Below, in pieces: positions 8,519 to 45,084 of a stretch of 64,000 nucleotides of DNA. Below the pieces are notes generated by a model that did no database searches, was not told the origin of the DNA, and worked only from the letters and a program-made list of their open reading frames with translations. The stretch is taken from assembly GCA_951406725.2 (NCBI GenBank), contig OX597815.1:95790001-95854000 (forward strand), written 5' to 3'. The stretch comes from Octopus vulgaris. Lineage: Eukaryota. A program made the translations under genes and the position numbers. Every line of letters starts with the position of its first letter. The stretch's first letter is position 1.

Positions 8519-8673
8519 TATATATATATATATATATATATATATATATGTATAGAGGGTATTATTACACATAAATGCCTCACACTAGGAGGGACAAAGT
8601 CATTACTACCAAAATTATACTAATCATACCCAAATGCAGTTTTTCAAAGCAAGACATTTAAAAAAATGAATTT

Positions 8674-8731
8674 AGTTCTGTATCACCGTGATTTCACATA
8701 TAACTTGCGTCTAATGATCGTCAGCGGAACT
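8674..8731 (-). ncRNA. Type I hammerhead ribozyme motif
   Basis: Reverse complement of 9326-9383 with one stem I mismatch. Confidence 0.7.
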
Positions 8732-9150
8732 GATTCTGAACACATCATAAATAAACTACCAACCTTACGTAGCGAAGACGAACAGACAACTGCTCATCCG
8801 GCCAAGCACATGGAATGTTTATAAATCATATATCCGGTAAAATGGCGGGCTTTTTTACGAACTGCATGTCGGGTAATGAAAAGTATTTCGGAATAAGTTT
8901 AACAATTAAGGATAATCTCTTAATAAGGGATCTTAACAAGAAATTATCGGGTAGCTAGCGTGAAAACCTCATAAAAGAAAAGAATCCGAAAATAATTTTT
9001 CTTTTGAACAAATTAATTATATCTATATTGTATAGAGGGCATTATTACACATAAATGCCTCACACTAGGAGGGACAAAGTCATTACTACCAAAATTATAC
9101 TAATCATACAAATGCAGTTTTTCAAAGCAAGACATTTAAAAAATGAATTT

Positions 9151-9208
9151 AGTTCTGTATCACCGTGATTTCACATATAACTTGCGTCTAATGATCGTCA
9201 GCAGAACT
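9151..9208 (-). ncRNA. Type I hammerhead ribozyme motif
   Basis: Reverse complement of 9326-9383. Confidence 0.75.
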
Positions 9209-9325
9209 GATTCTGAACACATCATAAATAAACTACCAACCTTACGTAGCGAAGACGGAGTGAGCAGTTGTCTGTTCGTCTTCGCTACGTAAGGTTGGTA
9301 GTTTATTTATGATGTGTTCAGAATC

Positions 9326-9383
9326 AGTTCTGCTGACGATCATTAGACGCAAGTTATATGTGAAATCACGGTGATACAGAACT
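9326..9383 (+). ncRNA. Type I hammerhead ribozyme motif
   Basis: agttctg-CTGACGA-tcattagac(gcaa)gttatatgt-GAAA-tcac(g)gtga-TA-cagaact: 7-bp stem I, intact core, imperfect stem II, short stem III. Confidence 0.75.
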
Positions 9384-9806
9384 AAATTCATTTTTTTAAA
9401 TGTCTTGCTTTGAAAAACTGCATTTGGGTATGATTAGTATAATTTTGGTAGTAATGACTTTGTCCCTCCTAGTGTGAGGCATTTATGTGTAATAATGCCC
9501 TCTATACAATATAGATATAATTAATTTGTTCAAAAGAAAAAAATTATTTTCGGATTCTTTTCTTTTATGAGGTTTTCACGCTAGCTACCCGATAATTTCT
9601 TGTTAAGATCCCTTATTAAGAGATTATCCTTAATTGTTAAACTTATTCCGAAATACTTTTCATTACCCGACATGCAGTTCGTAAAAAGCCCGCCATTTAC
9701 CGGATATATGATTTATAAACATTCCATGTGCTTGGCCGGAGTGAGCAGTTGTCTGTTCGTCTTCGCTACGTAAGGTTGGTAGTTTATTTATGATGTGTTC
9801 AGAATC

Positions 9807-9864
9807 AGTTCTGCTGACGATCATTAGACGCAAGTTATATGTGAAATCACGGTGATACAGAACT
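9807..9864 (+). ncRNA. Type I hammerhead ribozyme motif
   Basis: Identical to 9326-9383, 481 bp downstream. Confidence 0.75.
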
Positions 9865-39854: not shown

Positions 39855-39870
39855 GACAGACTCTAATCTC

Positions 39871-39917
39871 TCTTTTATATTTTGATAAGCATAACAAATG
39901 CGCAACCGGTAAAAAGA
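39871..39917 (+). ncRNA. Variant hammerhead-like motif (U3-A8, GCAA)
   Basis: tcttttatatt-TTGATAA-gcat(aacaa)atgc-GCAA-ccgg-TA-aaaaga at the position expected for a PLE HHR; stem I is weak. Confidence 0.45.
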
Positions 39918-40277
39918 ACTTTCACCTAATTAAATTACTTAAATTACTTCAATTATTTGTCAGCATTTTCTTCATTTCCTTTTTTATATATCACCACTCG
40001 TGTTCAACATCTCCTTTTTTTAAATATATATATATATATATATATATATATATATATATATATATATATATATATATATATATATATATATATATATATA
40101 TATATATATATATGCATATATATATGTATGTATATATTTGTATATATATATCTGTATATATATGTATATATACATATATATATATATATATGTAGGTCCC
40201 GGGTTGATTCGGGGTTAACCACAGTAAGTAAGGTACTCAATACATAGCAGAGTAAAATTAATTTATTATATAGAAGG

Positions 40278-40328
40278 AGCTTCTACAGGACTAGTACTGT
40301 TTCATTCAAGAGAAATCTTCAGGAAGCT
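40278..40328 (-). ncRNA. Type I hammerhead ribozyme motif
   Basis: Reverse complement of 44882-44932. Confidence 0.75.
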
Positions 40329-43300
40329 ATTTAACAAGAATTGTATTAGCATTTATACATTTAGGCAGGTTTAAGGAGTGGTGGTGGGGGACTTTTTGGG
40401 GTAGGCATAGCGCAAAATATCATACTTGGGGGAGTGGTCAAGGAGTCAGTGGTAAGTTAGATGAAAGAATAGATAAATAAAAAAATAAAAAAATAAAAAA
40501 TAAAAAAAAAAAAATAAAAAAATAAAATAAAATAAAAAAATAAAAAAATAAAAAATATAAAAAATATATATAAAAATATATATATATAAAATATATATAT
40601 AAAAAAATATATATATAAAAAAAGGGGGGATAGAGTTATAGGTAAATAAGGAGATTCTCACTTATACCTATACACACATGTATACGTATCTACACACACA
40701 TACATACATACACATATATATACACACACATATATATATACATATATATATATATATATATATATACATATACATATGTACACACATACATACATATCTA
40801 CATACACACATACATACACCCGCCCACATATACAAATTTATACACATGCACATGCCTATACCTGTCTACACATACACACACGTATATATGCATACACTCA
40901 CTCCCATGCATGCACGCATACACACATGTATATATATATATATATATATATACCCACGACCACACAAACATATATACACATAAAAATATATATTCATACG
41001 CACATACACTCATGCACACACAACACACCTAGTTCCCTATATACACATATTTACACCTATATATACATACACCCACATACACCTATGTACACATATATAT
41101 ATATAAACATATACACGCATACATATATATACATGTGTGCACATACATACATACACACATATATACATACACATACACATACACATGTGTACCTATACAT
41201 ACCTACACATACACACATACATACATACAAATATACATATACATATATATATATACAATCCAATACAGGCCCATTCCCTAATTTTAATTTTATTATCTTC
41301 ATTTATTACTTTTGTTATCTTTGATCGCTAGGGCTAAGAATCCTGGCAAAGGCTGCATGTCCATTTGTCTGTCTACTAGAAGGCAAGTACTCATTCCCGC
41401 ACGCACACTCATTAGCACGTACATTCACCCATTCGTACACTCATACACATACACGTACGCACGCGTTATATTCATACATACAAACATCTACATACGTTCA
41501 CGTATATACACATACGTACTCGTACCTACAGATTCGTGTCTCCACTTTAGGAGGCTAGTCTATACATATACACCAATAAATATACATATATATATATATA
41601 TATATATATACCCGCATATACATACACACACACATATATATACTCCTACATACAGATACATACCTATATATATATATATATATATATATATATATATACA
41701 TATACACACACATACATACACATATATGTACATACACAAACATATATACACACACATATATATACATACACACATACACACATACATACGTATACATACA
41801 TACATACATCTATACATCCATACTTACATGCATTTATACGCATACACACACCCATCTATATATATATATATATATATATATATATACACACTCACACATA
41901 CATATACAAATCTACGCACACACATACATACATACACGTATACGCATACACGCACATACACAAATACATGCGTACCCATACACGTGCACACACGCACGCG
42001 CATCCATATATATACACACACACACATATATATACACGTGTGCAAGCATACATACATACTCATACGCGCACACATACTTACAAATACATATATGCACACA
42101 CTTACACACATATATATACATACACATATACATGCATACATACATATATGCATACATACACACACGCACTCATATATATATATATATATATATATATATA
42201 TATATATATACATATATATATACATATATAGATATATATACACATACATACACATACACATACATACACACATATACACACACACACACACACACACACA
42301 CACACATACACACATACATACATACACACATACATACATATACATACACACACACATACATATATACATATACACTGATACACATACCCATACATACACA
42401 TGCATATACTTATATCACTACATACTCACATATATAAACATATATACATATACACACATACATATATACATGTACATACACATACGTATGCATATATATA
42501 TGTATACATATATATACACACATATATATATATATATATACATATACACACACACACACACATACATATACACATATACCTGTATGTGTATATATGTGTA
42601 TCATTTTTGCGTATGTATACAGGTATATGTGTATATGTATGTGTGTGTGTGTGTGTATATGTATATATATATATATATATGTGTATATATATGTATACAT
42701 ATATATATGCATACGTATGTGTATGTACATGTATATATGTATGTGTGTATATGTATATATGTTTATATATGTGAGTATGTAGTGATATAAGTATATGCAT
42801 GTGTATGTATGGGTATGTGTATCAGTGTATATGTATATATGTATGTGTGTGTGTATGTATATGTATGTATGTGTGTATATATGTATGTGTATATGTGTAT
42901 ATATATATATATATATATATATATGTGTATATGTGTGTATGTATGTGTATGTGTATGTATGTGTATATATATCTATATATGTATATATATATGTATATAT
43001 ATATATATATGTATATATATATATATATATATATGAGTGCGTGTGTGTATGTATGCATATATGTATGTATGCATGTATATGTGTATGTATATATATGTGT
43101 GTAAGTGTGTGCATATATGTATTTGTAAGTATGTGTGCGCGTATGAGTATGTATGTATGCTTGCACACGTGTATATATATGTGTGTGTGTGTATATATAT
43201 GGATGCGCGTGCGTGTGTGCACGTGTATGGGTACGCATGTATTTGTGTATGTGCGTGTATGCGTATACGTGTATGTATGTATGTGTGTGCGTAGATTTGT

Positions 43301-44881
43301 ATATGTATGTGTGAGTGTGTATATATATATATATATATATACATATATATAGATGGGTGTGTGTATGCGTATAAATGCATGTAAGTATGGATGTATAGAT
43401 GTATGTATGTATGTATACGTATGTATGTGTGTATGTGTGTATGTATATATATGTGTGTGTATATATGTTTGTGTATGTACATATATGTGTATGTATGTGT
43501 GTGTATATGTATATATATATATATATATATATATATATATATAGGTATGTATCTGTATGTAGGAGTATATATATGTGTGTGTGTATGTATATGCGGGTAT
43601 ATATATATATATATATATATATGTATATTTATTGGTGTATATGTATAGACTAGCCTCCTAAAGTGGAGACACGAATCTGTAGGTACGAGTACGTATGTGT
43701 ATATACGTGAACGTATGTAGATGTTTGTATGTATGAATATAACGCGTGCGTACGTGTATGTGTATGAGTGTACGAATGGGTGAATGTACGTGCTAATGAG
43801 TGTGCGTGCGGGAATGAGTACTTGCCTTCTAGTAGACAGACAAATGGACATGCAGCCTTTGCCAGGATTCTTAGCCCTAGCGATCAAAGATAACAAAAGT
43901 AATAAATGAAGATAATAAAATTAAAATTAGGGAATGGGCCTGTATTGGATTGTATATATATATATGTATATGTATATTTGTATGTATGTATGTGTGTATG
44001 TGTAGGTATGTATAGGTACACATGTGTATGTGTATGTGTATGTATATATGTGTGTATGTATGTATGTGCACACATGTATATATATGTATGCGTGTATATG
44101 TTTATATATATATATGTGTACATAGGTGTATGTGGGTGTATGTATATATAGGTGTAAATATGTGTATATAGGGAACTAGGTGTGTTGTGTGTGCATGAGT
44201 GTATGTGCGTATGAATATATATTTTTATGTGTATATATGTTTGTGTGGTCGTGGGTATATATATATATATATATATACATGTGTGTATGCGTGCATGCAT
44301 GGGAGTGAGTGTATGCATATATACGTGTGTGTATGTGTAGACAGGTATAGGCATGTGCATGTGTATAAATTTGTATATGTGGGCGGGTGTATGTATGTGT
44401 GTATGTAGATATGTATGTATGTGTGTACATATGTATATGTATATATATATATATATATATATATATGTATATATATATGTGTGTGTATATATATGTGTAT
44501 GTATGTATGTGTGTGTAGATACGTATACATGTGTGTATAGGTATAAGTGAGAATCTCCTTATTTACCTATAACTCTATCCCCCCCCTTTTTATATATATA
44601 TTTTTTTATATATATATTTTATATATATATATTTTTATATATATTTTTTATATTTTTTATTTTTTTATTTTTTTATTTTATTTTATTTTTTTATTTTTTT
44701 ATTTTTTATTTTTTATTTTTTTATTTTTTTATTTATCTATTCTTTCATCTAACTTACCACTGACTCCTTGACCACTCCCCCAAGTATGATATTTTGCGCT
44801 ATGCCTACCCCCAAAAAGTCCCCCACCACCACTCCTTAAACCTGCCTAAATGTATAAATGCTAATACAATTCTTGTTAAAT

Positions 44882-44932
44882 AGCTTCCTGAAGATTTCTC
44901 TTGAATGAAACAGTACTAGTCCTGTAGAAGCT
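44882..44932 (+). ncRNA. Type I hammerhead ribozyme motif
   Basis: agcttc-CTGAAGA-tttctcttgaat-GAAA-cag(tactagtc)ctg-TA-gaagct: 6-bp stem I, intact core, GUA cleavage triplet, palindromic ACTAGT in loop III; stem II is weak. Confidence 0.75.
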
Positions 44933-45084
44933 CCTTCTATATAATAAATATATATATATATATATATATATATATATATATATATTTATATATATATATA
45001 TATATGTATGTATATATATGCAGACATATATATATATATATATATATATATATATATATATATACATATATATATATATATATC

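What the first reader, a model, noticed from the sequence alone, without database searches (positions are those of the whole stretch)
8549..44949. Recurring system of head-to-head, hammerhead-terminated palindromic insertions in (AT)n
Seen: seven inverted duplications from about six distinct sequence families (8549-10125, 17803-18080, 20660-21345, 30913-31140, 31975-33015, 34315-40024, 40194-44949). In each, the 5' ends meet centrally and the 3' ends, carrying a minimal type I HHR-like motif, face outward, usually into (AT)n. Known: PLEs carry minimal HHRs in pseudo-LTRs, can form inverted arrangements, and HHRs with short palindromic stem III can act as dimers. Inference: both arms copy the same sequence, which ordinary single-RNA twin priming does not produce. 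Two RNA templates may prime on the two target strands, possibly paired through the self-complementary stem III/loop III sequences (ACTAGT, CCGG, TCACGGTGA, ATAT). Only one family here shows RT/EN, so the others may be trans-mobilised or 5'-truncated.
Basis: partly seen in the sequence, partly recalled or inferred. Interest (0 to 1): 0.85.

Follow-up and report, generated by a model that had tools for sequence, protein, structure and literature searches.

The report
Penelope palindromes from one twin-primed RNA
These mirror-image insertions are Penelope-like jumping genes and their ribozyme-bearing parasites, a known shape, but nearly every insertion pairs one short end with one long "tail" end and both halves carry the same source-copy variants, which likely means a single RNA is copied twice from two fixed start points.

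Summary
The palindromes are real (6 of 7; E2 is a deleted copy of the E7 family). They belong to Penelope-like element (PLE) families: a Neptune-type PLE (E6), a Hydra-clade PLE (E7/E2), a 480-bp non-LTR retrozyme (E1) and three older families. Head-to-head inverted copies, (TA)n targets, minimal hammerheads and a one-sided tail are published PLE traits, and this scan noted similar palindromes in other genomes.

Not found in my searches is the rule behind them. In a census of exact end motifs, 84 of 86 head-to-head pairs in three families join one tail-less end (A) to one tail-bearing end (B); 2 were B+B, none A+A. Both arms share source variants (32 of 34 at one segregating site, 14 of 14 at another). 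Either arm can be longer, and some B arms stop just short of A.

Best reading (0.6, inferred): one RNA primed from both target strands at sites A and B, the trailing polymerase displacing the first cDNA. Two RNAs from one locus remain possible. The question is testable in an existing in vitro system.

The parts
8549..9257 (-). E1 left arm: 480-bp non-LTR retrozyme, about 1.5 monomers, ends at site A (tail-less) in (TA)n
9256..10125 (+). E1 right arm: about 1.8 monomers, ends at site B (about 138 nt beyond A) in (TA)n; hammerhead motifs at 9333-9376 and 9814-9857 (left arm 9158-9201)
17803..18080 (.). E2: older, internally deleted E7-family (Hydra-type) insertion; B tail on the left (17803-17878, -), A arm with decayed hammerhead on the right (17976-18080, +)
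20500..21342 (.). E3: old PLE-type family, arms 20664-20775 (-, continuing to about 20500) and 21231-21342 (+, cut off after the hammerhead); ATAT helix III in family copies
30913..31140 (.). E4: mini palindrome, B (tail) arm left, A arm right; variant hammerhead-like motif at about 31045-31108 read by eye
31975..33062 (.). E5: old palindrome (arms about 83% alike), short end left with hammerhead-like motif, longer end right
34320..37329 (-). E6 left arm: 5'-truncated Neptune-type PLE, A end; RT ORF 35943-37346, GIY-YIG ORF 35146-36045, hammerhead variant 34397-34426
37324..40024 (+). E6 right arm, B end; RT 37227-38360, GIY-YIG 38490-39158, hammerhead variant 39882-39911, 36-nt tail 39989-40024; shares a 16-bp deletion with the left arm only (2 of 28 arms covering the site)
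37324..37329 (.). E6 central junction, 6-nt microhomology shared by both arms
40194..42571 (-). E7 left arm: microsatellite-rich 3' UTR of a Hydra-clade PLE, B end with about 70-nt tail (40194-40261); hammerhead 40284-40322
42600..44948 (+). E7 right arm, A end in (TA)n; hammerhead 44888-44926

Best explanation
The palindromes are single Penelope-like insertions into (TA)n, each joining a tail-less arm to a tail-bearing arm with shared source variants, likely made when one element RNA is primed from both nicked target strands at two fixed internal sites. Steps: (1) inferred from the anole PAc biochemistry: a probably dimeric RT-GIY-YIG protein nicks both strands of (TA)n and starts cDNA at site A (upstream) on one strand and site B (36-138 nt downstream, the 'tail') on the other, on an RNA not cut at that hammerhead. 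(2) Inferred: the B-primed RT trails the A-primed one; it either stalls just short of A (tail-only inverted arm, like ordinary L1 twin priming) or displaces the first cDNA and copies the same stretch again, since the RNA is not removed (no RNase H domain found). (3) Shown as a pattern, mechanism inferred: both cDNAs stop at random points, or together 3-6 nt 5' of the hammerhead core, and their 3' ends are joined by 0-6 nt microhomology or short filler. (4) Inferred: the same machinery moves the non-coding retrozyme in trans. The hammerhead is a passenger at the ends, not the coupling device.
For: A+B rule: census of exact end motifs gave 37 of 38 (E7), 23 of 24 (E6) and 24 of 24 (E1) head-to-head pairs as A+B; total 84 of 86, P about 5e-23 if ends were chosen independently at 0.5. 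Fetched loci agree (overlapping sets): E6 24 of 25, E7 17 of 17, E1 12 of 14 (2 had B plus a non-standard end), E4 7 of 7. One source: E7 segregating site concordant in 32 of 34 informative minis (Fisher 1e-7); E6 site 3879 concordant in 14 of 14; 10 variants private to one locus are in both arms in 8 of 24 loci; shared minor alleles 0.73/kb vs 0.10 for re-paired arms (E6, 22 loci) and 2.93 vs 0.16 (E7, 12 loci), 0 of 2000 permutations each. Two primings, not a fold-back: the longer arm is A in 8 and B in 16 E6 pairs, and A in 8, B in 3, tied in 1 of 12 E7 pairs; tail-only B arms share no sequence with the A arm (L045, L059, L064 and six minis), and 5 of 9 early B stops fall 6-17 nt short of A (post hoc P about 1e-3). 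Zero-spacer centres on a 4-nt palindrome (L118, L122, L127) suit two cDNA ends annealing. PAc nicks and extends both strands, has two RT start sites that define the tail, is predicted to be a dimer and needs no hammerhead cleavage (PMC11167929, main text parts 1-2 of 4).
Against: Sequence cannot tell one RNA molecule from two RNAs of the same locus. Two of 34 E7 minis are discordant and 2 of 86 census pairs are B+B. The B arm is often the longer one in E6 (16 of 24), which needs the trailing RT to pass a dissociated leading RT, and displacement over up to 2.9 kb has not been shown for a PLE RT. In long E6 pairs the two 5' ends are rarely close (1 of 24 within 50 nt). E7 arm-to-arm difference is not significantly below re-paired arms (4.28 vs 8.06/kb, 171 of 2000), and 19 short E6 pairs had no useful segregating site (3 shared, 6 discordant variants). 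Arm-to-arm conversion could add to concordance in spacer-less minis. In vitro, each strand used both start sites with no difference.
Confidence: 0.6

Rival explanations
1. Two RNA molecules from the same source locus (or two units of one tandem transcript) are held in one asymmetric protein dimer that forces one to start at A and the other at B.
For: Explains long overlaps without strand displacement, B-longer arms, shared haplotypes if one locus is active per germ cell, and the few discordant or B+B cases. Tandem source loci exist (L030, L032, L042, L061/62). PAc is predicted to be dimeric.
Against: Needs an added source of asymmetry, since the predicted dimer is symmetric and both strands use both sites in vitro. 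Does not predict B arms that stop just short of A. Many source haplotypes are in circulation yet chimeras are 2 of 34 at most.
Confidence: 0.22
2. Self-priming (fold-back) of one cDNA or antisense RNA makes a hairpin copy, and the endonuclease then resolves it and leaves the tail on one side (models in Arkhipova 2013 and Craig 2021).
For: Accounts for one source haplotype and head-to-head polarity; published (PMC3846280 passages; PMC8557442 passages). Slight microhomology at centres.
Against: Predicts a fixed link between end type and the longer arm; both orders are common. Tail-only B arms do not overlap the A arm, so neither can be a copy of the other. Most junctions have 0-3 nt homology or filler, and zero-loop centres cannot form an intramolecular hairpin.
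Confidence: 0.08
3. One reading: two independently recruited RNAs, paired through self-complementary hammerhead helix III/loop III, prime on the two strands.
For: The motifs can form predicted duplexes (-8.3 to -15.2 kcal/mol), and minimal PLE hammerheads are thought to act as dimers (PMC4209133 passages). Mini arms end at the hammerhead's 5' edge.
Against: A symmetric dimer predicts A+A and B+B ends and chimeric arms; seen 0 and 2 of 86, and 2 of 34. The weaker-dimer allele is no less palindromic (16 of 20 vs 8 of 10; small n). Naiads lack hammerheads yet form inverted copies. Cleavage would cut off sites A and B.
Confidence: 0.05
4. Assembly or long-read fold-back artefacts.
For: Young arms are more than 99% identical; one locus (L011) has an N gap at its centre; laying contigs of four runs did not bridge E6's junction (inconclusive).
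Against: Arms differ at 37 private sites in 25.5 kb, old pairs are 83-88% alike, the two ends are different family-specific sites, flanks are not mirrored, and centres carry filler sequence.
Confidence: 0.02

Closest known systems
EN+ Penelope-like insertion architecture (Arkhipova et al. 2013, PMC3846280; Craig et al. 2021, PMC8557442)
   Same: Head-to-head inverted 5'-truncated copy, tail often on one end only, (TA)n bias, partial tandems, hammerhead in the pseudo-LTR.
   Different: The passages read give no counts or haplotype test and propose self-priming or endonuclease resolution; here A+B is near-strict (84 of 86) and fold-back is contradicted. Tails are 36, about 70 and about 138 nt against the stated 30-40.
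Poseidon PAc in vitro TPRT (Frangieh et al. 2024, PMC11167929)
   Same: Both strands nicked and extended, two internal RT start sites that bound the tail, AT-rich target, hammerhead cleavage not needed.
   Different: The parts read do not couple the two sites to the two strands or explain inverted arms; this report infers that coupling.
L1 twin priming (Ostertag and Kazazian 2001, seen only as cited in PMC12016303)
   Same: One RNA, two primers, two opposed cDNAs joined at their 3' ends; overlap of the two cDNAs occurs.
   Different: L1's second site is variable, 15-22% of insertions are inverted and overlap is about 12 bp; here both sites are fixed, most young insertions are inverted (25 of 34 E6 loci) and overlap reaches kilobases.
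Animal non-LTR retrozymes (Cervera and de la Pena 2020, PMC7229834; Li et al. 2026, 10.64898/2026.07.22.740005)
   Same: E1 is a non-coding 480-bp tandem unit with one type I hammerhead per monomer.
   Different: Neither text describes inverted arms or tails (term searches); E1 shows the PLE insertion signature directly, which supports PLE-driven mobilisation.

Membership tests
EN+ PLE, Neptune type (E6) | RT followed by C-terminal GIY-YIG endonuclease | tested here: met
   Pfam RVT_1 and GIY-YIG in both arms
EN+ PLE, Neptune type (E6) | GxKF and DKG motifs; CX2-5CxxC linker before the endonuclease | tested here: met
   GLKF and DKG in the L032 ORF; CX4CxxC read from window 38760-38790. Nematis shares a similar linker.
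EN+ PLE, Neptune type (E6) | Phylogenetic placement in Neptune rather than Nematis | not tested
   no reference set in session
Hydra clade PLE (E7/E2) | RWK-like motif, DKT for DKG, CxCX5C linker, CxxC and CxH, (TA)n target, hammerhead | tested here: met
   RWR, DKT, CNCHDKTTC, CDLC, CMH in the L061/62 unit against section 11 of PMC8557442
Hydra clade PLE (E7/E2) | Generally short (<3 kb), single ORF | tested here: inconclusive
   Unit is 5193 bp because of a 2.9-kb microsatellite 3' UTR; ORF is in two frames in the one full copy read
Hydra clade PLE (E7/E2) | Profile match of RT and EN | tested here: inconclusive
   Pfam gave no RT or GIY-YIG hit on the two pieces; the paper calls Hydra RT4 and EN divergent
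Non-LTR retrozyme (E1) | Non-coding tandem unit with a type I hammerhead in each monomer | tested here: met
   480-bp arrays genome-wide; motif in each monomer
Non-LTR retrozyme (E1) | Self-cleavage and circular RNA | not testable with these tools
   needs RNA work
Minimal type I hammerhead of PLEs | Core, extra base after A9, short palindromic helix III | tested here: met
   features from PMC4209133. E6 carries U3-A8 and A13C changes, so its activity is doubtful.
L1-type twin priming | Both cDNAs come from one RNA molecule | tested here: inconclusive
   Same source haplotype and A+B rule fit; one molecule vs one locus is not separable from sequence
DNA transposon or MITE with terminal inverted repeats | Unit moves whole, with symmetric ends and a constant centre | tested here: not met
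   Ends are asymmetric and centres differ between loci

The most novel reading that the evidence does not exclude
The inverted structure and one-sided tail of all endonuclease-bearing PLEs come from programmed twin priming: a dimeric RT-endonuclease starts two cDNAs on one RNA at fixed sites A and B and copies the same template twice by strand displacement, so insertion needs no separate second-strand priming at the 5' end. The same reaction inserts retrozyme multimers, and the hammerhead fold marks or protects the RNA 5' end where both cDNAs run off.
Probability: 0.45. Interest if true: 0.8.

Novelty: new variant of a known kind. Interest (0 to 1): 0.58.

Why it matters
Craig et al. 2021 call the tandem/inverted structures of PLEs the product of 'still undefined features' of their transposition cycle. 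The A+B rule, shared haplotypes and tail-only arms narrow this to two primings on one source transcript and contradict the published self-priming model. They hold in two PLE clades and a retrozyme. A purified PLE protein system already exists, so one barcode-mixing experiment could settle it. The retrozyme result adds insertion-signature evidence that animal retrozymes are moved by PLE proteins. The elements themselves are ordinary members of known families.

Tried and rejected
Rfam scan: only microsatellite-driven miRNA matches among the 150 rows shown of 276. One search used a microsatellite-containing probe and was uninformative; it was redone. Sequencing runs: no RNA holder listed. Laying contigs of four runs on E6's centre: only collapsed family contigs, no piece spans the junction; no evidence either way. 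PDB sequence search with E6 RT: 0 hits. E6 vs E7 RT BLASTP: not significant (E 0.04). E3 and E5 families are too old to score ends: E5 gave 2 scorable pairs, both short+long; E3 was not scored. Rows left out of the permutation: L011 (N gap), L024 (internal deletion), L045 (arm too short). L178's A-arm start is an alignment artefact; L194 (a B+B pair) was printed but not scored there; L133 and L136 were left out. Ongoing arm-to-arm conversion as the sole cause of concordance was rejected for long pairs: 37 private differences remain against 10 shared, and old E5 arms are as diverged from each other (83%) as from other copies (79-85%). Literature searches for a prior statement of the rule; none of the listed titles or passages read states it. 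Most subscription papers are not held, and supplements of Craig 2021 and Frangieh 2024 (Fig. S2) were not opened and may bear on this.
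Full report
Observation. Self-BLAST and arm alignment confirm head-to-head inverted duplications at six of the seven places. Arm identity runs from above 99% (E1 8549-10125, E6 34320-40024, E7 40194-44948) to 83-88% (E3, E5). 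E2 is not a duplication (14-bp self-match) but a deleted E7-family copy with the same two ends. A hammerhead descriptor hit 8 element ends and 1 other place, against 3 hits in 10 shuffles; it was written after seeing the motifs. The ends are not cleavage sites: they lie 22-270 nt downstream of them, so the copied RNA was uncut at that ribozyme.

Identity. The window lies in a 2.8-Gb, 227-contig animal genome; a cephalopod is my untested guess. E6 has RT and C-terminal GIY-YIG. Its 4471-bp unit carries GLKF and DKG and a CX4CxxC linker (read), so it is Neptune-type by motif; no tree was built. E7's arms are only the microsatellite-rich 3' UTR of a 5193-bp unit whose ORFs carry the RWR, DKT, CxCX5C, CxxC and CxH motifs that define Hydra; Pfam did not recognise them. 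E1 is a 480-bp non-coding hammerhead tandem, a non-LTR retrozyme. E3, E4 and E5 are older multi-copy families with hammerhead-like ends.

What is known. [quoted passage not shown] Arkhipova 2013 notes that head-to-head is the usual polarity and proposes self-priming on an antisense template (passages). Frangieh 2024 shows both strands nicked and extended and two RT start sites that bound the tail (parts 1-2 of 4). Dimer-type minimal hammerheads are in PMC4209133 (passages). This scan has noted PLE palindromes, and mini copies that start at the hammerhead edge, in other genomes; none of the 16 notes shown states the end rule.

Test 1, end types. Each family has two 3' end sites: A, and B lying 36 (E6), about 70 (E7) or about 138 nt (E1) further on. 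In tandem loci the B tail is the start of the next unit. Among best-scoring fetched loci, head-to-head pairs were A+B in 24 of 25 (E6; 25 of 34 loci were palindromic; one has an N gap at the centre), 17 of 17 (E7), 12 of 14 (E1; the other 2 had B plus an odd end; 8 of 22 insertions had no inverted arm) and 7 of 7 (E4, tail-ascertained). A position-ordered census of exact end motifs, limited to the ranges both lists cover, gave 37 of 38, 23 of 24 and 24 of 24, or 84 of 86, with 2 B+B, no A+A, 1 tail-to-tail and 11 direct neighbours. The census and fetched sets overlap and are not additive. Exact motifs miss mutated ends, and E7's B motif can match tandem read-through.

Test 2, source. In E6, 10 variants private to one locus occur in both arms (8 of 24 loci), including a 16-bp deletion found only in the window's two arms (2 of 28 arms). 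A common site is concordant in 14 of 14, while 37 private and 7 segregating differences separate arms. Shared minor alleles exceed re-paired arms in E6 and E7 (0 of 2000 permutations each); total difference is significantly lower in E6 but not in E7 (171 of 2000). In 58 short E7 stretches (18 chosen as short pairs, 40 taken in list order), 42 had a B partner, none an A partner, and a segregating site agreed in 32 of 34 informative pairs. E1 arms also carry matching variant sets. Nineteen short E6 pairs were uninformative.

Test 3, fold-back. A copy of a B-primed cDNA cannot be longer than its template, and a copy of an A-primed cDNA cannot gain the tail. The longer arm is A in 8 and B in 16 E6 pairs, and A in 8, B in 3, tied in 1 E7 pairs. 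Tail-only B arms share nothing with the A arm. Five of 9 early B stops lie 6-17 nt short of A (post hoc P about 1e-3). Centres show 0-6 nt microhomology or filler. Two priming events are therefore needed.

Test 4, ribozyme pairing. Predicted loop III duplexes exist, but the allele with the weaker duplex has an inverted partner in 16 of 20 cases against 8 of 10, and hammerhead-less Naiads form inverted copies. In the abundant mini class both arms stop 3-6 nt 5' of the hammerhead core: both within -70 to -55 of A in 29 of 42 E7 pairs (core at -61), and both within -111 to -99 in 11 of 19 E6 pairs (core at -104). Centres vary, so each is built anew. This fits run-off at an RNA 5' end or a barrier at the ribozyme; the two were not separated.

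Mechanism. One RNA cannot be started twice at the same site at once, so a single template primed from both strands gives A+B, one haplotype, and tail-only arms when the trailing RT stalls. Long overlaps need strand displacement. That step is inferred: no RNase H domain was found, displacement by the R2 RT is recalled rather than checked, and L1 twin-primed cDNAs overlap by about 12 bp in 15-42% of cases (PMC12016303 passages). I give this 0.6, two RNAs of one locus in an asymmetric complex 0.22, fold-back 0.08, ribozyme-paired independent RNAs 0.05 and artefact 0.02. Read support for the young junctions could not be obtained.

Verdict. The elements and their shape are known. The near-strict A+B coupling with shared source, across two PLE clades and a retrozyme, was not found in eight searches (open-licence library only, supplements unopened) and makes an acknowledged open question testable. 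Other papers were seen as follows: 10.64898/2026.07.22.740005 parts 1-2 of 5 plus a term search; PMC7229834, PMC13282606 and 10.1101/2024.12.14.628481 passages only. Interest 0.58.

Noticed in passing
G000:C1, e.g. L118-L137, L138-L177, L178-L193: An abundant class of about 200-250 bp mini palindromes in both the Hydra and Neptune-type families whose two arms stop 3-6 nt upstream of the hammerhead core; they would be mis-annotated as MITEs.
   Followed up: yes
window 39882-39911 and 34397-34426; family E5: Hammerhead variants with a U3-A8 pair (E6 and E5) and A13C plus a bulged stem I (E6); activity doubtful.
   Followed up: partly
window 31045-31108: E4 family motif with U4C, an extra U before GAAA and a 1-nt loop III; read by eye only.
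   Followed up: partly
L032 unit 2-1360: The Neptune-type E6 unit has a 453-aa reading frame upstream of and overlapping the RT frame, unlike the usual single PLE ORF.
   Followed up: no
L061/L062 unit 2270-5190; window 40400-44750: The Hydra-type family carries a 2.9-kb microsatellite-rich 3' UTR and so spreads (TA)n/(TATG)n tracts, its own target type.
   Followed up: no
L078:790-830 and 8085-8115: The flanks of one retrozyme insertion form an 11-12 bp inverted repeat outside the (TA)n.
   Followed up: no
L133, L135, L164, L172, L177, L179, L181: Centres hold short templated re-copies of the arm ends, suggesting repeated priming during joining.
   Followed up: no
window 40024-40194; L048, L061, L068, L133, L194: Different PLE families stack in the same (TA)n tract; E6 and E7 share one.
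   Followed up: partly
window 4440-5941 and 21686-22889; 44920-46497; 47057-47941; 18741-19181: Other mobile remnants: LINE-type RT fragments, a mariner-type transposase fragment and a weak GIY-YIG match.
   Followed up: no
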